IMG/VR virus record: IMGVR_UViG_3300038420_000034
DNA: 51,875 nt
Source: a virus
Direction: 5' to 3' (one strand)
This document shows positions 1,398 through 22,238 of the stretch, one piece after another. The notes beneath the pieces are model-generated. The model was not told the origin of the DNA, did no database searches, and saw only the letters and a program-made list of their open reading frames with translations. The translations under genes and the position numbers were made by a program. Position 1 is the first letter of the stretch, and each line of letters opens with the position of its first letter.

Positions 1398-2132
1398 CTA
1401 GAATATGGCGGCCCTGCGGCGAACTGCAGAAGGCGGCGGGCCAGTCGACACGTGCAGCACGCCTGAAGATGTAAATGGGCTTAAGAAAGCAGCCCCAACT
1501 ATCTGGAAGGTCTCGACTAACACGCCTGCTGCCGTAACTGAGGAGAGATAAGTTACGCCTGTTATGCTAAAGGTCTCAACCAGCGTGCCAGCAGCGGTAA
1601 AACTAGAGACCACGCCAGCCCCTGAGATGATGAAATTCTCGGCTAGAACACCCGCGGCAGTAAAGCTGCTTAAGGTAGCCTCACCAGAAATTGCAAACCC
1701 TTCGGCTAAGACACCAGCAGCAGTAAAACTGCTAACTGTAGAAGTGCCGATGATGGCGAAGTCTTCATCCAGGACACCCGCGGCCGTAAAGCTAGAGACG
1801 GTCGCCTCACCCGAAGATGAAAAAGACTCTAAAAGTGTCCCAGCTGCCGTGAACTGGTAGAAGGTCCCAGTGCCGGCAAGGGTGAAAGTTTCAACCAGGA
1901 CACCGGCGGCGGTAAAGCTGCTTAAGATCGCCGCGCCAGTTGTTACACTGAAGGACTCGGTTAACGAGCCAGAAGCTGTAAAACTACTGACGACTGCCGC
2001 CCCAGTTAAGGTTGCGGGTGGGATGAACCCAACATCAACTAACGGGGCACCATACTGCCAACTGCCAAACTCAGGGTCGCCCTGGTCTAGCAGTGGCACC
2101 CCATCACGCCAACTGTTGAACTCACTGCCCAC
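1398..2132 (-). CDS. repeat-containing putative fibre/structural protein (9 x 22-aa repeat)
   Basis: Nine tandem copies of the unit (V/L)SSFTAAGVLxExFxIxGxxT in the translation. C-terminal G/P-rich tail. Sits within the structural block. Confidence 0.6.
   Translation of the reverse strand: MGSEFNSWRDGVPLLDQGDPEFGSWQYGAPLVDVGFIPPATLTGAAVVSSFTASGSLTESFSVTTGAAILSSFTAAGVLVETFTLAGTGTFYQFTAAGTLLESFSSSGEATVSSFTAAGVLDEDFAIIGTSTVSSFTAAGVLAEGFAISGEATLSSFTAAGVLAENFIISGAGVVSSFTAAGTLVETFSITGVTYLSSVTAAGVLVETFQIVGAAFLSPFTSSGVLHVSTGPPPSAVRRRAAIF
1436..1997 (-). repeat. 66-bp-period coding tandem repeat (encodes SSFTAAGVL.E.F units)
   Basis: Periodic ccgc[gc]gc[ag]gtaaa[ag]ct... motif visible in the nucleotide sequence. 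Corresponds to the 22-aa protein repeats. Confidence 0.55.
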
Positions 2133-2135
2133 ATG

Positions 2136-2699
2136 CTACGTAACCGCCAGGTGGTCGAAATAGACAACGCCAGCAGGCGTCGAACCAGACAATCCCCACA
2201 CGGTTGAGTTGTTGTGCAGCTCAACCCAAAGCACACCAGCCGCCGTGATAGATGGGGTGGTCAGAGGGCCAACAGAGACCCACCCAGTTCCACCCGTAGA
2301 AGAAAGCGTCAGGTCTGTGCTGACCCCAATTGCAGCGTTGGCCTTGATCACGATGCTTGGGTAGGGCGCCGTGTTGCAAGGTTGCTTCATGAAGACCGAG
2401 ATAGAGTGCGTGCTCCCAGCACTTACGGCCCACCGAAAGCGCCAGAACCCAGGAAAGTTTAGCTGAAGACACGGTTGGGCCGGGGTCCCATCTGTCACAT
2501 TCTGGATGATGAACTGGCCCATGTGGCGCCCTGCCGCGGTGTCGCCACTCCAGGTCGTGGCCCCCTCCAAGTTAAGGCCATTCATGGCGCCTACCCACCT
2601 CTGCCGAGAACCAACTACGGGGGTGCTGACCGCCACTGGCGTCAGAGATGACCGGCCTCTGGCCGAACACCCGGCATTTGACACGTAGATGTTTGGCAT
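2136..2699 (-). CDS. hypothetical Ser/Thr/Gly-rich protein (187 aa), putative fibre-associated
   Basis: ORF abuts paralog A1 (2700) and the repeat protein. Composition resembles the fibre-like neighbours. Confidence 0.5.
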   Translation of the reverse strand: MPNIYVSNAGCSARGRSSLTPVAVSTPVVGSRQRWVGAMNGLNLEGATTWSGDTAAGRHMGQFIIQNVTDGTPAQPCLQLNFPGFWRFRWAVSAGSTHSISVFMKQPCNTAPYPSIVIKANAAIGVSTDLTLSSTGGTGWVSVGPLTTPSITAAGVLWVELHNNSTVWGLSGSTPAGVVYFDHLAVT

Positions 2700-3713
2700 T
2701 TAGTTTATCTCAACTGTGTTGGTTATCTCCATCAGAAAGACACCGCCGCCCCACCCAGGCTTGATGACGTTGAACTGCCGAGACGAGTAGTCCCCGGAGC
2801 CGGAGATGACCATGCCATCTGAGAAGCTAGCCATTGGGTGACAGGGATACCAAAGCCCACGGAGCCGGCCTCTGACATTCCAGTTGGCATCCAAGATCCA
2901 AACTGGGCTTATGTAGAGTGACGAGTCCATCGGGTTAGGAAGTGGGATTGACCCAACCAACGGGATGCCAGTTGTCGTTGACATCAGGCCACTGTATCTC
3001 CCTGGGTCACCAACTGGATACCCGATCATGCTCCAACTAGTTCCAGCATAGTTGTCGGCCAGGTAAAGGCCGTAGGCATCGGCCACCGTTGTCACAACTG
3101 GGGTAACCTGCCGGTCAAGGCACCCATTAAGCAGGCCTGTGACCCCGCGGTCTGAGTTGGCCAGGCAGATGGCGCACCGGTTCAGGTCAGAGCTGCCCCA
3201 CAGTGAGTAGATGTCACCAAATAGGTATGCCCCATAGTAACCAGAGCCATCGTTGATGAACAGATAACTTGTGCTGGCGTCGGCATAGAGCTGCCATGAC
3301 CGTGGACTAGTCCCGTCATTACTCTTTTGATAGCCATAGCCTCCGGTGCCCCCTTGAGCAGCTGTCTGAGCCGCGGTTGGAAACGGGCCCGTGCCAGCTA
3401 CGAGTGACGTCATGGTCTTGTAACCAGCGCCCCAGGCCGCCCTAAAACCCATGGACACGGTATCTGGCTGGTTGTCGTTAAGGTAGAGGTAATAGCCACA
3501 CCCAGCGCCTTGCTTGAAGATCCCTATGTTGCCACTGTCGTTGATGACACTGCCGGCTGAACCCATCTTAGTCCAGCCAGCCGCTGCCTTACCAGAGTAG
3601 CCACTGACAAGACACTGGTTATAGAGGCTAAGGAGGGTGGCGCCATTGCCGTAAAGTGGCCCAGGCCCACCATAGTCAGCCGAGGTGTAGACTGTAAATT
3701 GGCTTACGGCCAT
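2700..3713 (-). CDS. tandem paralog A1 (337 aa), putative virion host-recognition protein
   Basis: N-terminus MAVSQFTVYTSADYGGPGPL...NQCLVSGYSGKAAAGWTK...GIFKQGAGCGYYLYLNDN. C-terminus IRGRLRGLWYPCHP...GVFLMEITNTVEIN. Both are shared with four neighbours. 48-nt stretches are identical to A2. Confidence 0.6.
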   Translation of the reverse strand: MAVSQFTVYTSADYGGPGPLYGNGATLLSLYNQCLVSGYSGKAAAGWTKMGSAGSVINDSGNIGIFKQGAGCGYYLYLNDNQPDTVSMGFRAAWGAGYKTMTSLVAGTGPFPTAAQTAAQGGTGGYGYQKSNDGTSPRSWQLYADASTSYLFINDGSGYYGAYLFGDIYSLWGSSDLNRCAICLANSDRGVTGLLNGCLDRQVTPVVTTVADAYGLYLADNYAGTSWSMIGYPVGDPGRYSGLMSTTTGIPLVGSIPLPNPMDSSLYISPVWILDANWNVRGRLRGLWYPCHPMASFSDGMVISGSGDYSSRQFNVIKPGWGGGVFLMEITNTVEIN

Positions 3714-3716
3714 AGG

Positions 3717-4748
3717 CTAGTTGGTCTCGACGGTGTTGCTTGTCTCCATCAAAAAGACACCGTTGCCCCACCCAGGACAGATGACGTTAAACGTCTTGGG
3801 TGAGAGGTCGTTAGTTCCGGAAATGGATGCACCATCTGAAAAGTTTACCAACGGATGGCAAGGATACCAGAGCCCCCTCAGCCTGCCCCTGATGTTCCAG
3901 TTGTAGTCCAACACCCAGATCGGACTTATGTGATATGAGGAGTCTGCTGGATTTGGAAATGGGATAGAGCCAATCAGTGGCAATGGTGTCCCTGCCGCCA
4001 TGACACCGTTATATTTTGACGGGTCTCCGACTGGGTAGCCGACCGTGCTTCCAACGGTCCCGGCATAGCTGTCAGACATGTAGAAGCCATACATGTCTGC
4101 CGCCGTCGTCACCAGTGGGGTAAGCTGCCGGTCAAGGCACCCATACGCAAGGTTCGGAAGCGCGCCTGCTCCACGATCTCCACCAGCCAGGCAGATGGCA
4201 CACCGGTTCAGGTCAGAGCTGCCCCACAAGGAGTAGATGTCACCGAACATGTAGGACCCATAGCCACCATTGCCATCAAACATGAAGAAGTAAAACGTGC
4301 TAGAGTCAGCATAGAGCTGCCATGGCCTGGCCGTGTTTGTGTCTATGCCCTTGACGATGCCGTAGTTAGCCGTCCCACCAATCTCAGTTGCAACTTGCAG
4401 GTCTGTTGGAAACGTGCCCCACCCAGTCGGTGTAAGTGCCGTCATGGTCTTATAGCCACGGGCATACGCACCTTTGTTAACTGCGCCACCGCCACCATCT
4501 GGGGCGTTGTCGTTAAGGTAGAGGTAATAGCCACACCCAGCGCCTTGCTTGAAGATCCCCACGTTAGAGCTATCGTTGATCACGCTGCCAACCGAACCTA
4601 ACTTAGTCCAGCCCGCAGCAGCATGGCCAGAGTAGCCACTGACAAGGCACTGGTTGAAGATATTGAGAAGCCCACCAGCCCCAGTGCACAGAAGAGGCCC
4701 CGGGCTTCCATAGTCACTCGAGGTGTAAAGTGTGAATTGACTAGCCAT
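3717..4748 (-). CDS. tandem paralog A2 (343 aa)
   Basis: Same conserved termini (MASQFTLYTSSDYGSPGPL... / ...GVFLMETSNTVETN). Variable core. Confidence 0.6.
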   Translation of the reverse strand: MASQFTLYTSSDYGSPGPLLCTGAGGLLNIFNQCLVSGYSGHAAAGWTKLGSVGSVINDSSNVGIFKQGAGCGYYLYLNDNAPDGGGGAVNKGAYARGYKTMTALTPTGWGTFPTDLQVATEIGGTANYGIVKGIDTNTARPWQLYADSSTFYFFMFDGNGGYGSYMFGDIYSLWGSSDLNRCAICLAGGDRGAGALPNLAYGCLDRQLTPLVTTAADMYGFYMSDSYAGTVGSTVGYPVGDPSKYNGVMAAGTPLPLIGSIPFPNPADSSYHISPIWVLDYNWNIRGRLRGLWYPCHPLVNFSDGASISGTNDLSPKTFNVICPGWGNGVFLMETSNTVETN

Positions 4749-4753
4749 GGGTC

Positions 4754-5770
4754 CTAGTTCGTCTCAACAGTGTTGCTTGTCTCTACGCAGAAAAGCCCAT
4801 TGCCCCACCCGGGCTTAACCACGGTAAAGGTCTTAGGCGAAAGGTCGCCAGAGCCAGAAAAGGTCGCGGCATCCGAAAAATTTGCCAGTGCATGACAAGG
4901 ATACCAGAGCCCACGCAGCCTGCCCCTGATGTTCCAGCTGGCATCCATCACCCAGATTGGGCTCAGGTAGTATGAGGAGTCCGGCACGTTTGGAAATGGG
5001 ACCGAGCCCACAAACGCAATCGGGAGCGTGGCCGACATGACACCATTGAACTTTGCTGGGTCCCCGACCGTGTAGCCGAGTGTGCTTCCAAAGGTCCCCT
5101 TGTAGTTGTCGGACATGTAGAAGCCATATTTGTTCACGCCTGTCACCAGTGGGGTAAACTGCCGGTCAAGGCACCCCATCGTAAAGACCGGAATTGAACC
5201 TGTGCCACGGTCTGTGTTAGACCCACAGAAGGCACACCGGTTCAGGTCAGAGCTGCCCCACAGGGAGTAGATGTCACCGAACATGTAGGACCCATAGCCT
5301 CCAGAGCCATCAAGGATAAACAGGTAAAACGTGCTAGAGTCAGCCCAAAGCTTCCAGGCACGGCCAGTCGATGCATCTTGGCTCTTGCAAAACCCAAACC
5401 CACCAGAAGAACCTTGGGCAGTCACCTGATACTGCATTGGAAACACACCCCACGCGGTTGTAAGCGACGTCATGGCCTTGTAACCAAGGGCATTCGCACC
5501 CTTGTCACCCATGCCACCGTCTGGGGCATTGTCGTTGACGTAAAGGTAGTAACCACACCCTGCACCCTGCTTGAAGATCCCAATGTTTCCAGAGTCATTG
5601 ATGACACTGCCAGCCGAGCCCATCTTGGTCCAGCCTGCAGCGGCATGACCAGAGTAGCCACTGACAAGACACTGGTTGAGGAGGCCAAGGAAGTTTCCAA
5701 CCGCATTACCATAGAGAAGCCCAGGGCCGCCACTGTCACTCGACGTGTAAAGTGTGAATAGGCTAGCCAT
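4754..5770 (-). CDS. tandem paralog A3 (338 aa)
   Basis: Same family (MASLFTLYTSSDSGGPGLL... / ...GLFCVETSNTVETN). Confidence 0.6.
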   Translation of the reverse strand: MASLFTLYTSSDSGGPGLLYGNAVGNFLGLLNQCLVSGYSGHAAAGWTKMGSAGSVINDSGNIGIFKQGAGCGYYLYVNDNAPDGGMGDKGANALGYKAMTSLTTAWGVFPMQYQVTAQGSSGGFGFCKSQDASTGRAWKLWADSSTFYLFILDGSGGYGSYMFGDIYSLWGSSDLNRCAFCGSNTDRGTGSIPVFTMGCLDRQFTPLVTGVNKYGFYMSDNYKGTFGSTLGYTVGDPAKFNGVMSATLPIAFVGSVPFPNVPDSSYYLSPIWVMDASWNIRGRLRGLWYPCHALANFSDAATFSGSGDLSPKTFTVVKPGWGNGLFCVETSNTVETN

Positions 5771-5775
5771 GGCCT

Positions 5776-6810
5776 CTAGTTCGTCTCGACGGTGTTGCTT
5801 GTCTCAATGCAGTAGATGCCACCATTGGCGCCAGGGCACAAGACCATGAAGGTCTTGCCTGCATAGTCACCAGAGCCAGAAAAGGTCACCCCACTCTGAA
5901 AGCTAGAGGCAGGGTGGCAGATGTGATAGAGCCCTCGCATCCTGCCTCGGATCTCAAAGCCAGTGCTGTCGTAGACATAGATCGGTGACATGTGGATCTG
6001 ACCATCGGCCAAGCTTGGCCTTGGCACGTTGCCAGAGATCGGAACCCCAAGTGTGGTCGTGATCTGCGTGCTGACCTTGCCCAGGTCACCACAGAGCCAG
6101 ACTGGGATGCTGATAGGCGTCCCAGCATAGGTGGAATACATGTAGCGCCCGGAGTAGCCCACCACAGCGTTGTTGCCACCTGCTGTTGAAGTGTAAGGGG
6201 TGTTTAGCTCATCCAGGCCACCATAGCCACACCCAACCGTGGCCTGGTTGATCGCATTTCTCCCTGTGATGATGACACGATTGGCATCCGCACTGCCGTA
6301 GTAGGAGTAGATGTCACCAAAGCAAAAGTCGAAAAACCCGCCAGCCCCAAGGGTAGTATCACCTGTGGCGATGAAGAAGTAGAACGTGCTTGCGTCAGCA
6401 AAGAGCCACCAAGGCCACTGGGTAGTCCCATCAGCCGTAGAGCTCTTGCGCTCTACCAAGACACTCCACGTGGTAAGCTGGGTGATGGTGGGAAAGATGT
6501 TATAGTTTTGTGCCTGGGCAAAGCTGGTGCCAGGGTTGTTAGTCCCCTGCGCCCAATATTCCTTAGCAGAGTAGTCCGAGGCCGCGTTGTCCCAGATGAT
6601 GCAGTAAAGCTGAGCACCGGCACCTTGCTTGAGGACACCATGGTTTGAAGAGTCGGCATAGGGCTTCACCCAGCCAGCTGCTGCCTTGCCAGTATAACCA
6701 CTGCAGAGGCACTGGTTCAGGACGTTGAGCACCGTGCCCGCCGAGCCTGTGATTGGCCCTGGGCCGGCCACGTCACGTGATGAGTAGATGGTGAACTGAC
6801 TGACGGCCAT
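5776..6810 (-). CDS. tandem paralog B1 (344 aa)
   Basis: Diverged subtype (MAVSQFTIYSSRDVAGPGPI...NQCLCSGYTGKAAAGW / EIRGRMRGLYHICHP...GGIYCIETSNTVETN). Confidence 0.6.
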   Translation of the reverse strand: MAVSQFTIYSSRDVAGPGPITGSAGTVLNVLNQCLCSGYTGKAAAGWVKPYADSSNHGVLKQGAGAQLYCIIWDNAASDYSAKEYWAQGTNNPGTSFAQAQNYNIFPTITQLTTWSVLVERKSSTADGTTQWPWWLFADASTFYFFIATGDTTLGAGGFFDFCFGDIYSYYGSADANRVIITGRNAINQATVGCGYGGLDELNTPYTSTAGGNNAVVGYSGRYMYSTYAGTPISIPVWLCGDLGKVSTQITTTLGVPISGNVPRPSLADGQIHMSPIYVYDSTGFEIRGRMRGLYHICHPASSFQSGVTFSGSGDYAGKTFMVLCPGANGGIYCIETSNTVETN

Positions 6811-6815
6811 AGCCT

Positions 6816-7874
6816 CTAGTTCGTCTCAACGGTGTTGCTTGTCTCAATGCAGTAGGCACCGCCATTCTGCCCTGGTGACAGGATCATGAAGGTCTTGCCC
6901 GCATAGTCACCAGCACCTGAGAAGGTCATCCTGCCACCCTGAAAACTTGACGCTGAGTGGCAGACATGGTAAAACCCACGCATCCGCCCACGGATGGCCC
7001 AAGTTGTAGGGTTGTCGTAGATGAAAACTGGCGCCACATAGACACTGTTATCGGCCATGTTCGACCGTGGGATGTTGCCTGCCAGTGGAACTCCCACCGA
7101 AGTTGTGAGCTGCGTGCTGACCTTGCCCAGGTCACCACAGATCCAGATAGGGATGCTAGCATTGGAGACGCCACCACCGTGGCCATACCAGTCGGCCATG
7201 TAACGGCCTGAATAGCCAGCTGCGCCGGGTGCGCCACTGTTGCCTCCTACAGTTGAGACATAAGGTGTGTTCAACTCATCCAAGCCACCCAGGCCACACC
7301 CAACAGACGCGTTGTTGATGGAGACCCTGCCAGCGATAAAGACACGCTCAGTATCACTGCTGCCATACAGAGAGTAGATGTCCCCAAACCCAAAGTCCAT
7401 GTATCCACCCAGGCCAAGGGTCGTGTCGCCTGTCGCGATGAACATGTAGATCGTGCGCGCGTCGGCAAAGAGATACCATGGCCTTAAGGTTGTTGAGTCA
7501 GCCGTGGCACTCTTGCGGACGATCAGTTGGCCCCATATGGTAAGTTGTATAGCATTTGGAAACTGCCCGCCTCCAGAAGACGTGTGAGCTCCATAAAACG
7601 CCGCCTCAGCAGCTGTGGTAGGAAAGGTAGCGCCATTGTCAGTCACCCCAAGGTAAAGCCCAAACGGGGCCGAGTTGACGCCAGCACCCTGCTGAAACAA
7701 TGCAAAATTTGAGGCAATTGGGGCAACCTTAGACCAGCCTGCAGCGGCATGGCCAGAGTAGCCAGAACACAGGCACTGGTCAAGGACGTTGATAAACGAC
7801 CCAGCAGACCCGGTGATGAAACCAGGCCCGCCAGCATCGTATGACGAGTAGACGGTAAACTGGCTGAAGGCCAT
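6816..7874 (-). CDS. tandem paralog B2 (352 aa)
   Basis: Subtype B (MAFSQFTVYSSYDAGGPGFI... / ...GGAYCIETSNTVETN). Confidence 0.6.
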   Translation of the reverse strand: MAFSQFTVYSSYDAGGPGFITGSAGSFINVLDQCLCSGYSGHAAAGWSKVAPIASNFALFQQGAGVNSAPFGLYLGVTDNGATFPTTAAEAAFYGAHTSSGGGQFPNAIQLTIWGQLIVRKSATADSTTLRPWYLFADARTIYMFIATGDTTLGLGGYMDFGFGDIYSLYGSSDTERVFIAGRVSINNASVGCGLGGLDELNTPYVSTVGGNSGAPGAAGYSGRYMADWYGHGGGVSNASIPIWICGDLGKVSTQLTTSVGVPLAGNIPRSNMADNSVYVAPVFIYDNPTTWAIRGRMRGFYHVCHSASSFQGGRMTFSGAGDYAGKTFMILSPGQNGGAYCIETSNTVETN

Positions 7875-7892: not shown

Positions 7893-8303
7893 TTACTCGT
7901 TCTGGGTGATGGTCAGGGATGAGCAGGTGACCGACGCGCCCGACGAGACCGACGTTGAGTTGATGATCAAGTCAGCCCCGCTGCCACTCGCACCCACCGT
8001 GAAGTCACAGACAACGGCCGTGCCGGAGGTAAGGGCCCTGGCAAACGTGGCCACGCCCGTGTATATCGCCGTGCCACCCGTGATGGTCCTGGCCGTGATG
8101 GTGCTGCTCGTGCTGGCATCCGACCCAGGGATCGTGAACGCCGTGGCGTCAAACGTCAACGTCGCCAACAGGTGGTTGCCACCCCCTAACGCCGTGTCCG
8201 GTGTCGTGGGCTGGGTGCCACTGTAGATGTTGATGGTGCCTCCATTACAGAGGGCTGCGATGGCGGCCAAGGCCGCCTCTCTTGTTGCTGCTGCCGAATA
8301 CAT
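7893..8303 (-). CDS. hypothetical structural protein (136 aa from Met at 8303)
   Basis: Track ORF 7893..8342 trimmed to the internal ATG at 8303, which has an AGGAGA SD 8 nt upstream and removes the overlap with the upstream gene. Thr/Ser/Gly-rich. Confidence 0.5.
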   Translation of the reverse strand: MYSAAATREAALAAIAALCNGGTINIYSGTQPTTPDTALGGGNHLLATLTFDATAFTIPGSDASTSSTITARTITGGTAIYTGVATFARALTSGTAVVCDFTVGASGSGADLIINSTSVSSGASVTCSSLTITQNE

Positions 8304-8314
8304 AGTTTTGTCTC

Positions 8315-8740
8315 CTAACCAATCTCTGCTATCACCGTCCAACCCGTGGCAGTGCCCAAGGCCAGGACGTTGAATCGTATCTTGTCACCGCTCGTCACCG
8401 TTCCCAGTGAAGGGCTGGTCGTGACACCCTCATAGGCGCCTGACCCGATAGTCACTGTCCCTATCGTTGCCGCTGAAAAGGCGCCGGTGCCTGACGACTT
8501 TTCAAACCTGACCGATGGCGAGCCACCAGCCACGCTCACCCTAAACACAAGCCGACGAATGACCCACACCAGTGGTGACATCCCATCGGCCGGACTATAC
8601 GGCACCAAGACCTCCGCCACATCAGGCCCGGTGGCTATTGGCGTATAGGCCGCGCAAAGCAACATCGACCGACCATCAACGGGCACGACCCCAACCTTCC
8701 AGTTAAGGGCCTGCAACCTTGAGATCGTCTCGACCAGCAT
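8315..8740 (-). CDS. hypothetical protein (141 aa)
   Basis: ORF between the giant protein (7-nt gap) and the 7893 gene. Confidence 0.5.
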   Translation of the reverse strand: MLVETISRLQALNWKVGVVPVDGRSMLLCAAYTPIATGPDVAEVLVPYSPADGMSPLVWVIRRLVFRVSVAGGSPSVRFEKSSGTGAFSAATIGTVTIGSGAYEGVTTSPSLGTVTSGDKIRFNVLALGTATGWTVIAEIG

Positions 8741-8747
8741 GCGTTAA

Positions 8748-11700
8748 CTACGTCAAAAAGTCAACTGCGATCTCGACATAGTTGCTGCTGAGGTTCACAC
8801 CATTTGAGGCAAAGGCCCGCACCACAAACGCCCCCTGGTAACCAGTCGAGGCATAGGCGTCTTGGGCGGTAAAGGCTGCAACCAGGTCATCATTGCTAAG
8901 CAGGTAAGAGTTGACCCCAGGCCTGAGCGTCACGCTCAGCATGGTGGTCTGGCTTCCAAGGACATAGAACTTCAGGACGGTGCTGGTTGCCTGGTCGGCC
9001 TGCATCCAGGTGACCGGGATGCTGTCACCAGAACGATACGTCGGGAATGACGACCCCTTGACAAGCAGGTTCATCGGGGCCAGTGGGACGTTCCCGGCAG
9101 TCACGGTCACGTAGATCGTCCGGGTGTCGGTCTTGCCACCCGTGTCAGTTGCCGTGACCTGTATCTGGAACGTCCCGGCAACCGTGGGGACGCCGCTGAT
9201 GATGTTGCCAACCAACGTCATGCCTGGTGGCACCTGGAGCGCCGTAAATGCCACCGGTGCCGCGCCCATGGCCGTCAAGACGTATGTGAACTGGGCGCCG
9301 AGCACCGCGTTCACGGACAAGGGTGAGGAGATGATGACAGGTGGGATCGTCACGGTCGTTGAGGCCCCAAGGACATCGGTCACCACCACGCTTCCAGTGA
9401 TGATGGCCGAGGCAGGGCCAGGCGTGACGATCACTGGGTTGCCAACACGAGTCGTCGCAACTGGGTTTGTAAAGGTCCACGCATAGGCCATGGCCATCCC
9501 AGCAGGGCTCGTGACCGTCACGCTGATGATCGCTGGCTGCCCGGCGGTGACAGGGCCACTTCCCGACAGTGGCTCAACGTGGAAAAAGTCCACCACAGGG
9601 TCGGAGTCTTGCGCCACGATGATGTCAACAGACCCAGTGCCGGTCTTCCCAATGGTTGTCGTTACCACAACTACCGCCTTCAGCGTGCCAGGAGACTGGC
9701 CGGCCATGTCGACGACCAACACGTTCTGCGCCGCCCCTCCGTTGATCGCCTGGGTTGTGCCTGGCAGGTATTGGTCCGTGGCCCACCCGTTGACCTTCAA
9801 CAGCTGCCAGGAGAAGCTCTCGATGTCATAGCCATCAAGGTCCAACGCGACGGCCGTCAACGTCACCACCGTTGGGATGGTGATGGGAACTGGGGTGCCC
9901 ACCACGGTTGGTGGGATCGTGATGTCGGGTGGGATGGCCGTCACGGCCACCACGACAGGCTGGCTAGTCACCACCCTGAAGCTGACCAGCATTGACGCTG
10001 TGGCCCCATAGTTGTCAACCAATGTCAAGGTCAGGTCTGCAGTCTCGGTGATGGTCAGGTTGAAGGTCACCGTCCCCTGGACATGGCCACTGACAACCGA
10101 CGTGATGACCTGTGGCGTGGCAGACCCGATAGACACGGTGATGGAGCCACCGGGGCTGCTGTCTGGGTCCTTGGCCGTGACTGTCACCACCGTCGAATAG
10201 CCAGGGGCCATGTCATTGTTGCTAACACCCAACGAGAGAACCTGTGGGGCCTGGTTGACCGTCGTGACGACCGTCTGTGAAACTGACCGGCCAAGGTCAT
10301 CGACGGCTGTCACCGTGACCGAGAGTGAGCCACCTGTGTTAGCCACCTTGGCCTGCTGTGCCACCGACGCGTCAGTGACCACAACCGTGCCATCCCAAAA
10401 TGACCAAACTAAAGATGTGGCATTTGAAACTCCTGAGACCTGGTAGACGATCGTGCTCCCTTGGTTGGGCGTAGACCCACCAAATGGCGTAAACGACCCA
10501 CCGATGATCGTCCCAGCTGCCAGGCTAAAGCTGCCTGGCCCAAGTGGGCTCACGGTCAGCACACCACCCGCAAAAAATGACTGGACCGTGCCTGGAGGCA
10601 TGGTAGGAACTGCCACAGGCAGGATGTCCTCACGCCTCCTGACCGTCACGCCCGTCACCGACTCGCTCAAGACTGATGCTGGTGTCCTGATGGCCTGGGT
10701 GACGGCGCCCCATGGCGATGGCCCACTCAGGCCTCCATCTGGCAGTATCCGAGTAGCTGGGTCAGACTCGTGCACCCACTCACTGATTGACCCATCCCAG
10801 TTGACAATGCCAACCCACCCACCAGGGACAGAGTTGGGAAGTGAGTCACCCTCGGCGGTGTCCAGTGGCATCAGCGTGGTTGGTGAGTCAACCCGGTAGA
10901 GTGTCGGCAACACCCTCTCAACCACCACCCCATAGATGGCCAAGGCATAGGAGACATTTTGCTGTGTGGCGTTGAGCTTCCCACCCCACGAGATCTCAAG
11001 CAACCAGCCAGAGCCAACGGCCTCCGAAAGCTCAAAGTCATACGTCACCGTCCCCCTTGGGTTGACTAGCCCGGTCCCTGTGACCACCATTGGAAATGAC
11101 ATCACCTGGCCGATGGTGACCTCGACGTTGAGCCCAGCAAAGTCCTTGGGAACCTGCCCAACATTCCCAGCATCAAGCGTCAGCCTGTAAGGCCCAGCTG
11201 CCAATGCCGCTGGCATGTAAAATGTCAGGCTGCCACGCTGGTCAGTGGCCGGCGTGCTGATGCCAAGGCCAAAGCTATTCGAGTCAACCCAGCTGGAGAG
11301 AAGCGTGGTGCTTGTGGAGGCGCCCAGGTCCACGACGGTGGTTGACGATGTGTAGAGAAACAGGGTCGACCACGGCATGCCCGCACTGACCCCACGCGAG
11401 ATCGTGCCATCCAGGCCAACGGTCAAGAGATACCCGCCCCCATCGACGAGGTGCATTGTCCGGCCACCTGACGCCACCTGCGTGGCCACAAGCACGGCCG
11501 AGTTCGTCCCATCCGAGTTGAGCACGCTGACGGCCTTGATCTCCCACGCGATGGCCCTGTAGAGGATGCGCCAGGTTGAGGATGTCACAGAGCCAGCTAT
11601 GTCAACCACCTGAAATGACGTTGAGCTGACGATGGTAGCGTCAAAGAAGGCCCCGCCAGATGGTGACTCATTCGAAATAAACCTGACCCGATCTCCAACG

Positions 11701-13853
11701 ACCCAGCCTGTCGTGCCAGAGACTCCAGACAGTGAGAGGACCTGCCCAATGGTCAACGAAGACAGGGTGATCGTGTCCGTCGATGCCCCAGTATACTGCT
11801 CAGCCGTCCACACCCGGTGAAAGGCCACGTTGCGGTTGGGCTCCTGAGAGAGCACACCAGCCCACGTGCTGTTCGACCCAACGATCCCATTCTGAGTTGA
11901 GACCACAACCCGGCCATCAACCATCACCGGCCAGCCTTGGCAGCCCAACAGCCATGGGACGGTCGGAACAGACCCACTGTCAAGGCCGACGTCATCTATC
12001 CGTGGGTCACCGATGACGTCGACCTCGTTCATCAGCAGCCTGGTCGACTCACGCTCAAGGAGGTTCGATGCCAAGGCCAGGCCGCTGCCAAGAGAGACCC
12101 GGTCAAGGTAGACAAAGCTACTGTTGCGGTAGGCCTTCATGGCCCACGACACCCCGGCTGGGGTCAGCACCATCGACGGCCACCGGCCCTGTGGGACAGT
12201 CCTCTGAACAGGAGTCCGAAACTCAACCACCGACTTGACTGCCGTCCAGATCCTAAGGTCGCGGATGGTGAATGTCGTGGTGGTCTGCCCACCCACCACG
12301 ATGGTATCTGGGGCGCCCAGGGCAAAGCTGGTAGCGCAGGGACCGGCTGTCCATACTGGCGATGCATCTGGGTCAGTCGACCGCCACAGGCTGACCGAGG
12401 CGATGGTGGACCCATCATAGACAAGCCCAAGAAGGTAGTCGGTTGTCAGGGAGATCGTGGTGCTGGCCTGCACCACCCAAGGGGTCACATACAGCACACC
12501 AGCCGCGGAGAAAGACTGGACCGTGTCCGCCGCAGCTGGCCAGCTTGGGTTGGCTGCCACCGTCGACTCACCCGCCGCCACAGGCAAGACCCTGACCTCG
12601 AGCGTCATGACCCCCGTCCCAACTGCATAGTTGACAACCACCCAAAGTGGCCCAAGGCGAAGCAGGGTGGTCGTGCCATCGGAACCTGAGATGTTTAGCC
12701 GAGGCGAGAACCTAAACATCACCGTGGCCGGGCCATCTGGAAGCTCGTCGTGCATCTGCAGCGTGATGCTCTTCCCACGTGGCACGTAGAGGGCCCAGCC
12801 CCAATCCTTGATCAGCTGCCGGTCAGTGTTGAGAAACTGACTGAGGACACCCTGCCCACCCCACACGGCCTCGTTGACCACCATGGCCGACTCAGGGTGC
12901 TCGTTGAACGGCCACCACTCCCAGAGGTCGGCGTGAAAGTCGTCTGAGAAGAAGCCCTGCGGGTCAGCCACCAGCACGCCATAGACCAGCCCTACCTGGA
13001 CAAAGGTGTAGATGGTATAGCTTGAGTCAAGGTCTGGGGCCAGCCAGTTAGGGGCCACCGTAAACGTAGTCTTGCCCGCCGTAGTAGCTGTGTTGGCTAT
13101 GATCACCCTGACCTGGCCGGAGCCTAAGCCAGAGTTGAGCTTGACCAGCCAGCCAACGTAGGCATTGGCCACCACCCCAGTCAAGGTAGCATCACGAAAG
13201 GTTGACACCCCAGCCACCGTCGCCCCATCATAGACCAGGCTAGTCACGCCTGGCTTTAGGGCAAAGCAGCAGTCACCGAACTCATCAACCTGCCTGAGTG
13301 AAAGCTGGAGCGGCTCGATGCCGGCCTGAGAGCAGACGGCCGACACGAGCCATGGGGTATTGCCCTGGTCAAGGACAGTTGGCCGACGCACGATGACCTT
13401 GGCCTTGGCCAACCCGACAAGCCTGAAACTCTCGGCCAGCCTGGCATCACCAAGGCATGTCAGCGACCGGCTCCAGGGTGACTCGTCGATCAGGCTCCCA
13501 TCGACATACAGGCTGCTGTCGGCCCAGGTCTCACCATAGTAGTCCTGACTAGGTGACTCGATGATGGTCTCTTCAGGGAGGCCAAGGCTCTTTTGGTCCG
13601 ACGGGGCCAAGGTCCTAAGGAGGGCATCCTGGTTGGTCCGGATGACCTTCGTGGAGAGGTCTTGCCAGATGGCGATGATGTCAATCCACGCTGGGACCTC
13701 AGGCGGGACGTTTGCCACCCAGTTCCCCGTGTCCGTGTAGAGGTCGAGGGTGAGCGCGACAATCGAACCTCCTTCGGTGGGAATTTGGCCCGTATAGTGG
13801 ACCAAGTTGTGGTTGGTCGCGTCATACTCGCCCGTGAAGATGATCTCAGCCAT
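8748..13853 (-). CDS. giant virion structural protein (1701 aa), putative tail fibre/adhesin with Ig-like beta-repeat regions
   Basis: 5.1-kb uninterrupted ORF. Extremely T/V/S/G-rich C-terminal half, typical of Ig-like/beta-sandwich repeats. AGGAA SD before the start at 13853. Confidence 0.7.
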   Translation of the reverse strand: MAEIIFTGEYDATNHNLVHYTGQIPTEGGSIVALTLDLYTDTGNWVANVPPEVPAWIDIIAIWQDLSTKVIRTNQDALLRTLAPSDQKSLGLPEETIIESPSQDYYGETWADSSLYVDGSLIDESPWSRSLTCLGDARLAESFRLVGLAKAKVIVRRPTVLDQGNTPWLVSAVCSQAGIEPLQLSLRQVDEFGDCCFALKPGVTSLVYDGATVAGVSTFRDATLTGVVANAYVGWLVKLNSGLGSGQVRVIIANTATTAGKTTFTVAPNWLAPDLDSSYTIYTFVQVGLVYGVLVADPQGFFSDDFHADLWEWWPFNEHPESAMVVNEAVWGGQGVLSQFLNTDRQLIKDWGWALYVPRGKSITLQMHDELPDGPATVMFRFSPRLNISGSDGTTTLLRLGPLWVVVNYAVGTGVMTLEVRVLPVAAGESTVAANPSWPAAADTVQSFSAAGVLYVTPWVVQASTTISLTTDYLLGLVYDGSTIASVSLWRSTDPDASPVWTAGPCATSFALGAPDTIVVGGQTTTTFTIRDLRIWTAVKSVVEFRTPVQRTVPQGRWPSMVLTPAGVSWAMKAYRNSSFVYLDRVSLGSGLALASNLLERESTRLLMNEVDVIGDPRIDDVGLDSGSVPTVPWLLGCQGWPVMVDGRVVVSTQNGIVGSNSTWAGVLSQEPNRNVAFHRVWTAEQYTGASTDTITLSSLTIGQVLSLSGVSGTTGWVVGDRVRFISNESPSGGAFFDATIVSSTSFQVVDIAGSVTSSTWRILYRAIAWEIKAVSVLNSDGTNSAVLVATQVASGGRTMHLVDGGGYLLTVGLDGTISRGVSAGMPWSTLFLYTSSTTVVDLGASTSTTLLSSWVDSNSFGLGISTPATDQRGSLTFYMPAALAAGPYRLTLDAGNVGQVPKDFAGLNVEVTIGQVMSFPMVVTGTGLVNPRGTVTYDFELSEAVGSGWLLEISWGGKLNATQQNVSYALAIYGVVVERVLPTLYRVDSPTTLMPLDTAEGDSLPNSVPGGWVGIVNWDGSISEWVHESDPATRILPDGGLSGPSPWGAVTQAIRTPASVLSESVTGVTVRRREDILPVAVPTMPPGTVQSFFAGGVLTVSPLGPGSFSLAAGTIIGGSFTPFGGSTPNQGSTIVYQVSGVSNATSLVWSFWDGTVVVTDASVAQQAKVANTGGSLSVTVTAVDDLGRSVSQTVVTTVNQAPQVLSLGVSNNDMAPGYSTVVTVTAKDPDSSPGGSITVSIGSATPQVITSVVSGHVQGTVTFNLTITETADLTLTLVDNYGATASMLVSFRVVTSQPVVVAVTAIPPDITIPPTVVGTPVPITIPTVVTLTAVALDLDGYDIESFSWQLLKVNGWATDQYLPGTTQAINGGAAQNVLVVDMAGQSPGTLKAVVVVTTTIGKTGTGSVDIIVAQDSDPVVDFFHVEPLSGSGPVTAGQPAIISVTVTSPAGMAMAYAWTFTNPVATTRVGNPVIVTPGPASAIITGSVVVTDVLGASTTVTIPPVIISSPLSVNAVLGAQFTYVLTAMGAAPVAFTALQVPPGMTLVGNIISGVPTVAGTFQIQVTATDTGGKTDTRTIYVTVTAGNVPLAPMNLLVKGSSFPTYRSGDSIPVTWMQADQATSTVLKFYVLGSQTTMLSVTLRPGVNSYLLSNDDLVAAFTAQDAYASTGYQGAFVVRAFASNGVNLSSNYVEIAVDFLT

Positions 13854-13942: not shown

Positions 13943-15196
13943 TCATTCGGGAAGAGGATTTTCCTCACTCTCAGGGTCGATCATGACCGACGGCTTCTTC
14001 GGCTCCTTGGCTGGGGCCTTTCCAGACAGCTCTTGGATCTTCCGCCACTTCGATGGTGACAGCCTCTGATATGCGTCACCATGGGTCAGTTGAAACTTGA
14101 TCAGGTCAGGCCTGGCCGTGTAGAGGTCCATCAGGAGGTCATCATCCAGGTCGTTGATGCTGAAGTTGTTCCCCTCAAGGTAGCTGTGCTCACCTGTCAA
14201 GCCCTTGATTATCGGCTGCTTGAGCAGCTCCACGATGGCCGGGTGATACTCTTCATCTGGCTTTTTGTTAGCCTTGCCCTTCATCTCCCCAAGATGGCCT
14301 TGTGGAGTAATGATGAACGTCAGCTTCGGCTCAAACAGGCCGATGAACTTGGTCGATGGCGCACGGTAGGAGATGAGACGGTCCTCCGGCCTCGAAGACG
14401 CGCCACCCACGTTTCCGCAGTGACTCATCAACTTGCCCTCGTATGAGTCACCACCAGCGTCAAGGATAACCCACTTTGTGCCATCGGGGAACTGGACGAT
14501 GGGCTTGCCCTCAGGCAGCTTCTCGATGGCCTCGATGGCATCGCCGATGGAGTTCAGGTCACGGTAGACGTCGTCGGTCTTGCGGTCATTGCCTTGGGCA
14601 TCGACATACTTCATGTTCCTCAGCCCGGTGGCCACGGCGATGGCGCCTCGCATTGGCATGAGCTCCGCCACGCGCTGCTCAATCTCACGCCAGCCACAGT
14701 TGCAGTGGGCGTGGGGCGCGTTGGTCGAGGCAGGGCAGTCGGCACCGTGGCCATCGCCTGCCCCCTCACGGCCACGGAGCAAGACACGGAGGACCCGAGG
14801 GTTCAGCTTGGTGACATCCAGGTTGCCAAGCCTGGCCACCTTCTCGTTGAGGGTCTTGTAGACGGCCAAAAACTGGCCGGTGCCCTCACCTCCAGGGGCC
14901 CGTGGGTCAAAGAAGAAGATGGCCTCCTCAACCACCCGGTCCATGGTATAGCCACGGGCCTCAAGCTTCGCCTGGGCCCTCAGCCACTTTGGGTCTGGGT
15001 CACCCTCCTTGTCCATGCTCATCCAGATCCCAGTCCGCTGGATGATGCGGGCCACCCAGAAGCAACCGTCACTTGACTGGATGACCTCCCTTACCTTGGT
15101 GAACAGCTCCCTGACGAGGTTCTTCTCCTCCTCACATAGGTCGGCCCACCACTGGGAGGTCTCAACCAGCTGCAACATCTGTTGTTGCCTACCCAT
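13943..15196 (-). CDS. hypothetical protein (417 aa)
   Basis: AGGAGG SD 7 nt before ATG at 15196. No motif I can name. Confidence 0.6.
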   Translation of the reverse strand: MGRQQQMLQLVETSQWWADLCEEEKNLVRELFTKVREVIQSSDGCFWVARIIQRTGIWMSMDKEGDPDPKWLRAQAKLEARGYTMDRVVEEAIFFFDPRAPGGEGTGQFLAVYKTLNEKVARLGNLDVTKLNPRVLRVLLRGREGAGDGHGADCPASTNAPHAHCNCGWREIEQRVAELMPMRGAIAVATGLRNMKYVDAQGNDRKTDDVYRDLNSIGDAIEAIEKLPEGKPIVQFPDGTKWVILDAGGDSYEGKLMSHCGNVGGASSRPEDRLISYRAPSTKFIGLFEPKLTFIITPQGHLGEMKGKANKKPDEEYHPAIVELLKQPIIKGLTGEHSYLEGNNFSINDLDDDLLMDLYTARPDLIKFQLTHGDAYQRLSPSKWRKIQELSGKAPAKEPKKPSVMIDPESEENPLPE

Positions 15197-15812
15197 GGTG
15201 TAACCTCCTGGCGATCTTCATCTGGTGTCTCAGGACAAGCCTGGCACGCTGGGTTAGGGTCTCGCGGTTGATCGTCTGGCCCTCTGGCGATGGCGCGATC
15301 TGAGGCTCTTGGGCAACGTTGAAGTCGCCCGCCTCAAGCAAGATGTTGACAATGTCTACCGGGTCGTCCACGGCATCAAGAACCTGCCTGGCTGTAAAGG
15401 CCGAGTCGATGATGCCACGACTAGGCGGGCTTGGTGGATCTTCATCGGTCCACCGCATCAGCCCGAACTCGTCTTCGTGCGCCATGACATAACTAGTGGT
15501 GTCAAACTCAGCCCTGGCTGAGAACCGGGTGCCCTTTGGGACGTGGAGCGCTGAGAGGTAGGGCTCCTTGATGACCATGCCACCACTCGGCTCCATGGGG
15601 TCTTCACCCATGTAGTAGAGCTGGCCGTCCTTGAGCCCATAGAGGAAGTAGGTGAACATGTCACGCTCAATGCCGTCGACACGCAGGAAGTCCCACATCT
15701 CCGAGCGGTCTTTACCAATAATCACCATGCCGTCGCCATCGTCAACCACGGGTTCAGACCACTTTGCTCGGATAGACCACTCCCGACCGTCGATGTTTAC
15801 CTTAAGTGGCAT
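15189..15812 (-). CDS. modular-family protein (207 aa; SRGIIDSAF...ARQVLDAV unit)
   Basis: Contains the ...SRGIIDS...ARQVLD... and C-terminal ...QMKIARRL... elements shared with the 15.8-25.7 kb family. Confidence 0.55.
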   Translation of the reverse strand: MPLKVNIDGREWSIRAKWSEPVVDDGDGMVIIGKDRSEMWDFLRVDGIERDMFTYFLYGLKDGQLYYMGEDPMEPSGGMVIKEPYLSALHVPKGTRFSARAEFDTTSYVMAHEDEFGLMRWTDEDPPSPPSRGIIDSAFTARQVLDAVDDPVDIVNILLEAGDFNVAQEPQIAPSPEGQTINRETLTQRARLVLRHQMKIARRLHHG

Positions 15813-16464
15813 GACCGGCCCTCATAGCACTGGAGATCTTGCCACGATTAACCTTGATGATTCGACGCCTTAGCTCGGCATATTCCTCTGGGTCAGCAAG
15901 CACGTAATAGTCATGGCCTCCTCCCTCAACCTTCACGACCTTGTCACCCGGCTTGATATATGAAGAAAACGAGGCCAGTTGATCCGCCATTGAGCGGTAA
16001 ATCCTCTGAGACGTCGAATCGGATGAACTAACATACCGAAAATCATTGACAATGGGCAGAGCATCTTCGGTTTCCACGTTGAACGTCTCGACTCCAACCA
16101 TGCCAATGGGTGGGTTATCAACTGATTTTACCCAAGCCTTAGCCCGTGCTATGGCCTTCATCTTGACGGTTTCTAGCTCCTCGGCAAATTTTACCTTGAT
16201 CGCATCTGACAAGACCGGGTTACCCAATGAAGACATCCCACGATTTAGAGATGTGACAAAAGCAACCTGTTCACTGGACATCGGCATAGACGCCTCAAAA
16301 CTTCTTGACTCGCCTCCAGACAAAAATGCCGTCGTCGTGCACCTAAAAATCTTCTTTGAAAAATCCACCTCGGCATAGAAATCGACCTTGGGCTTTCCAG
16401 GATTTCCGACTATATATCGAGGCATTTCAAGCAGTAAAGAATCGATGATATTTCGTGACTTCAT
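15802..16464 (-). CDS. modular-family protein (220 aa)
   Basis: Starts MKSRNIIDSLLLEMPRYIVGNPGKP. Ends GDKVVKVEGGGHDYYVLADPEEYAELRRRI...SSAMRAG. Both match module ends found in the larger paralogs. Confidence 0.55.
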   Translation of the reverse strand: MKSRNIIDSLLLEMPRYIVGNPGKPKVDFYAEVDFSKKIFRCTTTAFLSGGESRSFEASMPMSSEQVAFVTSLNRGMSSLGNPVLSDAIKVKFAEELETVKMKAIARAKAWVKSVDNPPIGMVGVETFNVETEDALPIVNDFRYVSSSDSTSQRIYRSMADQLASFSSYIKPGDKVVKVEGGGHDYYVLADPEEYAELRRRIIKVNRGKISSAMRAGHAT

Positions 16465-16982
16465 GCAACTCTTTCGCCAACAGGGCCCCTGTGCGTGCGG
16501 CAGATGGATCTTGAGTATAAGCCCCTGTCTTTAGTGGTTGAATCGCAATTGATTATGCCAGAATCTCTAAAATCATGATGAATCGACACGCCATTGAGTC
16601 CAAGCGACTTTATCCTATGACAGTTTGGACACAAACACTGACGATTAGCAGCTGAATTACCACCGCCGTCAGCCACTGGAATAACGTGGTCAATGTCAAA
16701 AAACAATGGATCTTTACAAGATCGTTTACACCGAGCGCACCTCCAACCGACATTAAGAAGTGGAAGTCCACATATCTGGTTAAGCAACTCAATCCTAATT
16801 ACGGTCGAATATCGGATTGTTCGGCCAAGTTTTTTCTGAAAAACGATCCACTTAACCTTTTCCATCCTAACTCCAGAACCCGTATATTCTCTGACAAATT
16901 CTGGACCATAGATTTTCGAATACTTAGCCAACCTAAGCGCTGATTTACGCCTGAACTCGATAATATATTTTTGAGTCTTCAT
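16461..16982 (-). CDS. HNH endonuclease (free-standing homing-endonuclease-like)
   Basis: CARCKRSC...DIDHVIPVADGGGNSAANRQCLCPNCHRIK = HNH motif with the Zn-binding C pairs. ATGA-type 4-nt overlaps at both ends. Confidence 0.8.
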   Translation of the reverse strand: MKTQKYIIEFRRKSALRLAKYSKIYGPEFVREYTGSGVRMEKVKWIVFQKKLGRTIRYSTVIRIELLNQICGLPLLNVGWRCARCKRSCKDPLFFDIDHVIPVADGGGNSAANRQCLCPNCHRIKSLGLNGVSIHHDFRDSGIINCDSTTKDRGLYSRSICRTHRGPVGERVA

Positions 16983-18025: not shown

Positions 18026-18058
18026 AACACAGAGTCAATGACAGTCTTCACTCTCGGT

Positions 18059-21948: not shown

Positions 21949-21957
21949 CGCCCATGG

Positions 21958-22236: not shown

Positions 22237-22238
22237 AA

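What the first reader, a model, noticed from the sequence alone, without database searches (positions are those of the whole stretch)
2700..7874. Five tandem paralogous ~340-aa genes with conserved N- and C-termini and variable cores (3 type-A, 2 type-B)
The genes are separated by only 3-5 nt. The first ~75 and last ~60 residues are conserved (…NQCL(V/C)SGY(S/T)G.AAAGW… and …IRGR(L/M)RGL(W/Y)…ETSNTVETN). The central ~200 aa differs in each copy. Type-A copies share identical 20-48-nt DNA stretches (e.g. at 3474..3524 and 4511..4561), which indicates recent duplication or gene conversion. The array lies in the structural block next to the giant fibre-like protein. Constant ends with variable cores are what exchangeable host-recognition modules look like. 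This may be a multi-receptor-binding-protein repertoire.
Basis: partly seen in the sequence, partly recalled or inferred. Interest (0 to 1): 0.65.

Follow-up and report, generated by a model that had tools for sequence, protein, structure and literature searches.

The report
Five tandem phage tail-arm subunit genes
Five neighbouring genes of an uncultivated phage encode old, diverged copies of one globular tail protein whose predicted fold matches only the two proteins that build the pilus-grasping side arms of Pseudomonas phage JBD30, so they are more likely parts of one tail appendage than five alternative host-recognition proteins.

Summary
Five same-strand (minus) genes of 337-352 aa lie 3-5 nt apart: two B-type copies (63% identical), three A-type copies (64-69%), and 42-44% identity between types.

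They belong to PHROG 9600, an uncharacterised "tail assembly protein" family with about 4,500 clusters in metagenomes. A homologue, AXL1 gp46, was found by mass spectrometry in purified virions.

The copies are old (dS 0.8-2.2) and under purifying selection (dN/dS 0.17-0.34). They form one clade (97% bootstrap). "Constant ends, variable middle" is the conservation profile of the whole family. Only one 54-nt identical tract exceeds chance.

Related loci carry 1-5 tandem copies, flanked by a conserved ~120-aa domain upstream and a carbohydrate-binding-module-like protein downstream.

Best reading: these are co-assembling subunits of a tail appendage. This is inferred, not shown. I rate it a new variant of a known kind, of moderate interest.

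The parts
6816..7874 (-). g1, B-type paralog (352 aa), first gene of the array
   Evidence: ORF. PHROG 9600 E=5.8e-25. 63% identical to g2.
5776..6810 (-). g2, B-type paralog (344 aa)
   Evidence: ORF. PHROG 9600 E=1.8e-27. The B clade has 100% bootstrap.
4754..5770 (-). g3, A-type paralog (338 aa); this is the copy that was modelled
3717..4748 (-). g4, A-type paralog (343 aa)
   Evidence: PHROG 9600 E=1.7e-27. 69% identical to g3 and 67% to g5.
2700..3713 (-). g5, A-type paralog (337 aa), last gene of the array
   Evidence: PHROG 9600 E=1.1e-28. The A clade has 100% bootstrap.
3471..3524 (.). 54-nt tract identical to 4506-4559 (g5 versus g4); the only candidate gene-conversion tract
   Evidence: Exact match. 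Local pS is 0.05 against about 0.6 gene-wide. Codon-shuffle null P=0.0003.
2136..2699 (-). 187-aa protein directly downstream of the array. Residues 1-59 are disordered; residues 60-187 form a carbohydrate-binding-module-like beta-sandwich. Candidate sugar-binding end piece.
7893..8342 (-). 149-aa protein between the anchor-domain gene and the array
   Evidence: PHROG 3758 'virion structural protein' E=2.7e-24. No relative in isolated phages or in the related loci.
8315..8740 (-). 141-aa protein made almost entirely of a ~120-aa domain. In other phages this domain is the C-terminus of the protein just upstream of the array. Candidate docking platform.
   Evidence: BLASTP at 42-56% identity to the last ~120 residues of upstream proteins of 163-1127 aa in at least 12 loci (alignment). 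No PDB, Pfam or PHROG relative.
8748..13853 (-). 1701-aa Ig-domain protein upstream of the module
   Evidence: Pfam He_PIG E=6.6e-8. Related loci carry Laminin_G_3 plus Ig-like proteins of 1153-1219 aa at the same position.

Best explanation
The five genes encode paralogous globular structural subunits of a tail appendage. They belong to the PHROG 9600 family and share the fold of the JBD30 'tail-fibre-forming' proteins gp47 and gp48.

The proposed mechanism has four inferred steps:
1. The five genes are expressed as one tightly coupled operon.
2. B-type and A-type subunits associate through the conserved N-terminal helix region and the C-terminal strands. They stack into a lateral arm made of globular units rather than a trimeric coiled fibre.
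3. The arm docks on the conserved ~120-aa domain encoded just upstream.
4. The arm carries, or works with, the carbohydrate-binding-module-like protein encoded just downstream. The loop-rich variable middle (about residues 180-260) faces outward and may contact the cell surface.

Shown here: homology, fold, age of the duplications, selection, and conservation of the flanking genes. Shown for a homologue: presence in virions. Inferred: co-assembly, geometry, the docking partner and the ligand.
For: - Family: full-length PHROG 9600 matches, E=1e-25 to 5e-36. The family has 4,512 clusters at E<=1e-3, nearly all single-domain proteins of 310-380 aa.
- Precedent: in JBD30 each arm is three gp47:gp48 heterodimers that embrace the type IV pilus (PMC11445458).
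- Virion presence: the homologue AXL1 gp46 (30% identity, 97% coverage) was detected in CsCl-purified virions with 54 PSMs (PMC9206674).
- Operon: the gaps are 3-5 nt, and internal promoter or terminator matches do not exceed chance.
- Age and selection: dS 0.8-2.2 and dN/dS 0.17-0.34.
- Two diverged types in fixed order recur elsewhere. Other arrays split into an upstream clade and a downstream clade (82% and 80% bootstrap).
- Parallel case: L007 has 3+2 copies with positional orthologues in L026. Individual positions are therefore maintained over long times.
- Flanking genes: the upstream domain and the downstream CBM-like protein co-occur with the array across loci.
Against: - No complex was modelled or observed, so heteromer formation is argued by analogy only.
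- Many relatives have a single copy, so heteromers cannot be obligatory for the family.
- The sequence link to gp47/gp48 (PHROG 687) is undetectable.
- The gene position differs from JBD30, where the pair lies between the tape measure and distal tail protein genes.
- The A and B types show no obvious charge complementarity.
- The morphotype of this phage could not be determined.
- Five subunits do not map simply onto the six positions of a JBD30 arm.
Confidence: 0.5

Rival explanations
1. Multi-receptor repertoire. Each paralog forms its own receptor-binding unit on a common attachment site. The variable loops give five specificities and a broad or switchable host range.
For: - The most variable segments are loop-rich and of lower model confidence: about residues 81-90, 111-135 and 180-260.
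- In some 20-codon windows of the residue 90-130 region, pN is about equal to pS between A-type copies.
- Copy number varies from 1 to 5 among relatives.
- The window's five copies form a lineage-specific expansion (97% bootstrap). The nearest relatives seen have one or two copies.
- The JBD30 homologous fold does contact a receptor.
Against: - The protein is one globular domain with no separable anchor and head.
- The same conservation profile holds in single-copy phages.
- The duplicates are old, and dN/dS is 0.17-0.34 overall.
- The two-type structure recurs, and positional orthologues are kept between L007 and L026. That looks like fixed roles rather than rapid turnover.
- A dedicated CBM-like candidate binder is encoded next to the array in 26 loci.
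Confidence: 0.3
2. Virion-borne enzymes. The invariant acidic, basic and histidine residues (D80, D144, D166, R282, R286, H293, E330 in g3 numbering) form an active site that acts on a surface polymer. The paralogs would have different substrate specificities.
For: - These residues are conserved in 86-99% of 185 family members.
- The JBD30 authors say gp47 was classified as a hydrolase of the nitrilase superfamily.
Against: - There is no Pfam domain.
- Conserved charged residues are equally expected at subunit interfaces.
Confidence: 0.07
3. Non-structural tail assembly chaperones, as the database name 'tail assembly protein' suggests. On this view they are absent from the finished virion.
For: Only the inherited annotation in Salvo, DLP4, AXL1 and other records.
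Against: - The AXL1 homologue gp46 is abundant in purified virions.
- The only fold relatives are virion components resolved by cryo-EM.
- The name traces to annotation, not to an experiment.
Confidence: 0.05

Closest known systems
Pseudomonas phage JBD30 gp47 and gp48, 'tail-fibre-forming proteins' (PDB 8rk3; PHROG 687)
   Same: - Similar size (305-317 aa).
- Adjacent paralogous genes of two diverged types.
- Located in the tail module.
- Homologues of both families occur in type IV pilus phages.
   Different: - No detectable sequence relationship: 11-12% identity, hhalign probability 0.4%, no cross-hits between PHROG 687 and PHROG 9600.
- Five genes instead of two.
- The A and B types are 43% identical, whereas gp47 and gp48 are 19%.
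- The gene position differs: not between the tape measure and distal tail protein genes.
- Salvo carries both families at different positions (gp47/gp46 versus gp40). They are therefore distinct components.
PHROG 9600 'tail assembly protein' of isolated siphophages (Xylella phages Sano and Salvo gp40, Stenotrophomonas phages DLP4 and AXL1 gp46, Xanthomonas phages Bosa and Xp12)
   Same: - Same sequence family: about 30% identity over 91-98% of the length.
- The same conserved N-terminal and C-terminal motifs.
- Located at the distal end of the tail gene block.
- The AXL1 member is in virions.
   Different: - Isolated phages carry one copy. The one exception among the phage records is a metagenome-assembled genome with two.
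- In those phages the gene lies between a small protein that follows the Mtd_N-domain protein and a tail fibre gene.
- They lack the ~120-aa upstream domain and the CBM-like downstream protein.
Tandem arrays of the same family in uncultivated phages (for example L007/L026 with five copies, L016 with four, L014 and L019 with three)
   Same: - Tandem, same strand, gaps of a few nt.
- Two diverged types with lineage-specific duplication of each.
- The same flanking upstream domain and CBM-like protein.
   Different: - The window's 2+3 array arose independently of the upstream/downstream split seen in the other arrays. Its five copies are monophyletic, also when only core columns are used.
- The rest of the genome shares no detectable similarity with those loci.
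Multi-tailspike or branched receptor-binding systems (CBA120 TSP1-4, K1-5/SP6, PhiK64-1); recalled from general knowledge, not tested here
   Same: Several receptor-related genes in a row at the end of the tail block.
   Different: Those proteins combine a short conserved N-terminal adaptor with unrelated large trimeric enzymatic heads. Here each protein is one small globular domain that is homologous along its whole length.

Membership tests
PHROG 9600 ('tail assembly protein') | Significant, near full-length match to the family profile | tested here: met
   All five match with E=5.8e-25 to 5e-36, covering profile positions 4 to about 306 of 330.
PHROG 9600 ('tail assembly protein') | Reciprocal similarity to named members (Salvo gp40, AXL1 gp46) | tested here: met
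   tblastn with g3 gives 29-32% identity over 91-98% of the query in 44 phage records. Salvo gp40 scores E=3.6e-128 on PHROG 9600. An HMM built from the window and metagenome sequences finds Salvo gp40 at E=1e-59.
PHROG 9600 ('tail assembly protein') | Component of the virion | not testable with these tools
   Known only for the homologue AXL1 gp46, by mass spectrometry of purified virions (PMC9206674).
JBD30 gp47/gp48 tail-fibre-forming proteins (PHROG 687) | Shared three-dimensional fold | tested here: met
   [not shown]
JBD30 gp47/gp48 tail-fibre-forming proteins (PHROG 687) | Sequence-level membership | tested here: not met
   The five proteins do not hit PHROG 687. gp47, gp48 and Salvo gp47/gp46 hit PHROG 687 and not PHROG 9600. 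Profile searches of the PDB do not find 8rk3. hhalign probability is 0.4%.
JBD30 gp47/gp48 tail-fibre-forming proteins (PHROG 687) | Gene pair located between the tape measure and distal tail protein genes | tested here: not met
   In JBD30 and Salvo the pair follows the tape measure gene. Here the array follows a 1701-aa Ig protein and two small genes, and no tape measure gene was recognised.
JBD30 gp47/gp48 tail-fibre-forming proteins (PHROG 687) | Two paralogous types that form heterodimers stacking into an arm | not testable with these tools
   Two types exist. No multimer prediction or structure was available.
JBD30 gp47/gp48 tail-fibre-forming proteins (PHROG 687) | Binding of the type IV pilus | not testable with these tools
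   The host is unknown (peat metagenome relatives). Isolated phages with PHROG 9600 members infect pilus-phage hosts, but they also carry the PHROG 687 pair.
Modular receptor-binding proteins (conserved adaptor plus exchangeable head) | Separable conserved anchor domain joined to a non-homologous receptor-binding domain | tested here: not met
   The model is a single domain (pTM 0.88). The paralogs align over their full length with invariant mid-protein motifs. Both ends are conserved across 185 family members.
Recently duplicated or concerted-evolution gene array | Low synonymous divergence, or long conversion tracts | tested here: not met
   dS is 0.8-2.2 for all pairs. Only one 54-nt tract exceeds the codon-shuffle null. 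Monophyly holds with core columns alone (84%).

The most novel reading that the evidence does not exclude
The appendage is a genetically 'spelled-out' heteropolymer. Each of the five paralogs fills one fixed position in a lateral arm of globular subunits, between a ~120-aa docking domain and a sugar-binding end protein. Arm length and geometry would then be set by gene copy number. Two unrelated phage lineages would have reached five-subunit arms (2+3 and 3+2) independently. PHROG 9600 and PHROG 687 would together form a large, unrecognised superfamily of arm-building proteins, distinct from trimeric fibres and tailspikes.
Probability: 0.3. Interest if true: 0.6.

Novelty: new variant of a known kind. 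Interest (0 to 1): 0.45.

Why it matters
PHROG 9600 is large (about 4,500 clusters at 50% identity), has no solved structure, and carries a name ('tail assembly protein') that appears to be wrong. Linking it by fold to the JBD30 arm proteins gives it a testable structural role.

It also suggests that arms built from stacked globular subunits are far more widespread than the single solved example. The fold occurs in loci with sipho-, myo- and podovirus-type marker genes.

The arrays of 1-5 copies with conserved flanking genes offer a natural series. It could be used to ask how such appendages are lengthened or diversified, and whether the variable loops or the neighbouring CBM-like protein recognise the host. 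The answer would matter for predicting and engineering host range.

Tried and rejected
- DNA-level search of the array against isolated phages found nothing.
- Pfam found nothing for the five proteins or their small neighbours.
- Sequence and profile searches of the PDB gave only chance hits: polyhedrin at E=0.9 and triosephosphate isomerase at E=0.3.
- hhalign between a 185-member family alignment and a gp47/gp48/Salvo alignment was not significant.
- Recent duplication was rejected on dS.
- Widespread gene conversion was rejected. My first run-length test was flawed because all-gap columns broke the runs. After correction only the g4/g5 54-nt tract is exceptional.
- I tested whether terminal gene conversion alone creates the monophyly of the five copies. 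Core-only trees still give 84%.
- Near-identical contigs from other samples (99.8% identity, about 11 SNPs over 4.9 kb) have too few differences to test for diversifying selection.
- No extra, more distant family member was found in the window at E<=10.
- The ~120-aa upstream domain has no PDB or PHROG relative.
- The 149-aa and 187-aa neighbours have no relatives in isolated phages.
- A scan of one genome per prokaryotic species found a single relative, on a 53.6-kb contig of a MAG labelled Patescibacteria. That gives no host clue.
- The phage morphotype could not be assigned. The large structural ORFs have no PHROG or Pfam hits.
- No charge dichotomy between the A and B types.
- No tRNA genes in the window, and no relevant tandem DNA repeat in its first 9 kb.
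Full report
**1. Observation**

The window carries five consecutive minus-strand ORFs:
- g1: 6816-7874, 352 aa
- g2: 5776-6810, 344 aa
- g3: 4754-5770, 338 aa
- g4: 3717-4748, 343 aa
- g5: 2700-3713, 337 aa

All start with ATG. The gaps between them are 5, 5, 5 and 3 nt.

A protein alignment shows full-length homology, with 92 invariant columns and 63% mean column identity. g1/g2 (B type) are 63% identical, g3/g4/g5 (A type) are 64-69%, and the two types are 42-44% identical.

The middle is more variable than the ends, but it is not different in each copy. Core identity is 56-64% within a type and about 36% between types. A mid-protein FGDIYS motif is invariant.

The longest identical DNA run is 54 nt (3471-3524 = 4506-4559). 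I used a null that shuffles synonymous codon pairs only among positions with the same amino acid. Against it, this run is exceptional (P=0.0003). The 30-36-nt runs of the other pairs are not (P=0.07-0.12, which corrects a flaw).

Synonymous divergence is near saturation (dS 0.8-2.2), and dN/dS is 0.17-0.34 for every pair. The copies are therefore old, all are under purifying selection, and at most one short conversion tract is detectable.

**2. Family**

Pfam has no match. All five match PHROG 9600, 'tail assembly protein', over nearly the whole profile (E=5.8e-25 to 5e-36).

tblastn finds homologues of about 30% identity in 44 isolated-phage records. With one exception each record has a single copy. 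They include Xylella phages Sano and Salvo, Stenotrophomonas phages DLP4, AXL1, DLP3 and DLP5, and Xanthomonas and Pseudomonas phages. Several of these hosts are infected through type IV pili (and the papers listed).

An exhaustive profile search gives 4,512 clusters at E<=1e-3 and 1,148 at E<=1e-30. Nearly all are single-domain proteins of 310-380 aa.

The name has no experimental basis that I could find. In contrast, AXL1 gp46 was detected in CsCl-purified virions by HPLC-MS, with 54 PSMs and 35% coverage. That is more than either annotated tail fibre protein (PMC9206674). I confirmed from coordinates that gp46 is the homologue.

**3. Fold**

I modelled g3 with AlphaFold2, using 25 sequences in the alignment. 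The model has pLDDT 82.1 and pTM 0.88 and is one mostly-beta globular domain with a conserved N-terminal helix.

By length and gene table these chains are gp47 and gp48. The JBD30 paper describes them as tail-fibre-forming proteins of similar fold. Three gp47:gp48 heterodimers, each rotated 180 degrees relative to the next, form each of three bent arms. The arms protrude from the baseplate and embrace the type IV pilus (PMC11445458).

At the sequence level there is no link:
- gp47, gp48 and Salvo gp47/gp46 belong to PHROG 687.
- Profile searches of the PDB miss 8rk3.
- hhalign is not significant.

Salvo carries both families at different positions: gp47/gp46 after the tape measure gene, and gp40 before the tail fibre gene. 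PHROG 9600 is therefore a distinct component with the same fold, not an orthologue of gp47/gp48.

**4. Comparative anatomy**

I collected 25 IMG/VR loci and several metagenome contigs. An HMM scan of their ORFs shows 1 to 5 family members per locus. They are always tandem, on one strand, and a few nt apart.

A neighbour-joining tree with 200 bootstraps shows:
- The window's five copies form one clade (97%), split into A (100%) and B (100%).
- Using only core columns still gives 84% for that clade. Terminal homogenisation therefore does not explain it.
- Most other arrays split into an upstream clade (82%) and a downstream clade (80%), each duplicated in a lineage-specific way.

L007 has 3+2 copies, with 60-74% identity within a type and 35-38% between types. 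That mirrors the window's 2+3. L007 also has positional orthologues in L026 (56-73% identical).

The closest relatives of the window proteins that I could place are single- or two-copy. They lie on contigs with SU10-type capsid and adaptor genes.

The array thus arose by duplication in this phage's own lineage, and a similar five-gene, two-type layout arose separately elsewhere.

**5. Family-wide conservation**

Across 185 members, the N-terminal 50 residues, residues 281-290 and the last 8 residues are the most conserved. Residues 180-260 are the most variable. The variable stretches coincide with the coil-rich, lower-confidence parts of the model.

'Constant ends, variable middle' is therefore a property of the fold. 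Single-copy phages show it too.

**6. Flanking genes**

- Upstream protein (141 aa, 8315-8740): it corresponds to the last ~120 residues of the protein directly upstream of the array in at least 12 loci. The N-terminal parts of those proteins vary from 40 to 1,000 residues. It has no known relative.
- Further upstream: a PHROG 3758 'virion structural protein' (149 aa) and a 1701-aa Ig-domain protein.
- Neither flanking domain is detectable in Salvo, in the two-copy metagenome-assembled phage genome MW202621 (locus L002) or in JBD30, nor in any isolated phage.
- No internal promoter or terminator signal exceeds chance.

**7. Interpretation**

Established:
- These are tail-block genes of a virion-protein family.
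- They have the fold of arm-building, receptor-contacting proteins.
- They are anciently duplicated and individually conserved.

Inferred: they co-assemble. The reasons are:
- the heterodimeric precedent in JBD30;
- the recurrent two-type structure in fixed gene order;
- the tight operon, which suits fixed stoichiometry;
- the conservation of the probable contact regions;
- the retention of positional orthologues.

Points against, or left open:
- Many relatives manage with one copy.
- No complex could be modelled.
- Five subunits do not map simply onto the six positions of a JBD30 arm.
- The A and B types show no charge complementarity.

The variable loops could carry specificity, and some windows have pN about equal to pS. 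However, it is not what 'constant ends, variable core' demonstrates.

The enzyme reading has no fold support. The chaperone reading is contradicted by the AXL1 proteomics.

**8. Novelty and score**

The kind is known: paralogous globular tail-fibre-forming proteins, as in JBD30.

What appears new:
- the fold assignment of PHROG 9600;
- its expansion into arrays of up to five copies, with two independent 2+3 and 3+2 cases;
- the conserved three-part module.

I rate it a new variant of a known kind, with interest about 0.45.

Noticed in passing
window 36016-37056 (+): A 346-aa adenylosuccinate-synthetase-like protein. It hits PHROG 1211 (E=1.9e-42). Its best PDB matches are three 363-aa 'adenylosuccinate synthetase' chains (6tnh, 6fm1, 6fko; E about 1e-30), which I recall, without checking here, to be vibriophage PhiVC8 PurZ. 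Next is 7odx, deposited as PurZ (E=1.6e-16). Cellular PurA scores lower. The phage may make 2-aminoadenine (Z) DNA. No partner gene such as DatZ or MazZ was identified: the 189-aa phosphoesterase at 28227-28796 has only a weak hit to aq_1665.
   Followed up: partly
window 33031-35664 (+): An 877-aa ORF with Pfam major-vault-protein domains (MVP_shoulder E=9e-19, Vault_3 E=1.6e-9). It lies on the opposite strand to most genes, in a 33-37 kb stretch of raised GC (0.62) that also holds the PurZ-like gene. This is an unusual gene for a phage genome.
   Followed up: no
window 16461-16982 (-): An HNH endonuclease (PHROG 589 and related families, E=6e-10) inside the structural gene block, in the only low-GC kilobase of the window (0.44 against about 0.57). 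It is probably a mobile homing-type insertion.
   Followed up: no
window 1398-2132 (-): A 244-aa protein made of about ten repeats of a 17-18-residue unit (SSFTAAGVLxExFxIxGxx). It hits part of the 1533-residue profile of PHROG 38263 (E=2e-11). Similar 'SF(S/F)A(A/G)GVL' motifs occur in the 1701-aa protein. It is possibly another fibrous tail component downstream of the CBM-like gene.
   Followed up: no
window about 1004-1053, compared with L003 4876-5893: A near-identical contig from another sample (99.8% identity) carries about 1 kb here where the window has about 50 nt. This is a strain-level indel just beyond the tail module.
   Followed up: no
window 45026-46099 (-) and 42322-43038 (-): A DNA methyltransferase (PHROG 56, E=3.5e-29) and a protein matching a glycosyltransferase family (PHROG 14945, E=1.7e-40) and, more weakly, a DNA methyltransferase family (PHROG 2675). 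Together with the PurZ-like gene they hint at modified DNA.
   Followed up: no
L007 1068-3245 and L030 4314-7051: The ~120-aa upstream domain occurs twice in some relatives. L007 has two tandem copies within one 725-aa protein. L030 has two consecutive proteins that each end in the domain.
   Followed up: partly
window 13943-25687 (-): The large presumed structural ORFs (417, 348, 650, 646, 369 and 780 aa) have no PHROG or Pfam match at all. The capsid, portal and tail type of this phage remain unidentified, and the genome is very distant from described phages.
   Followed up: partly
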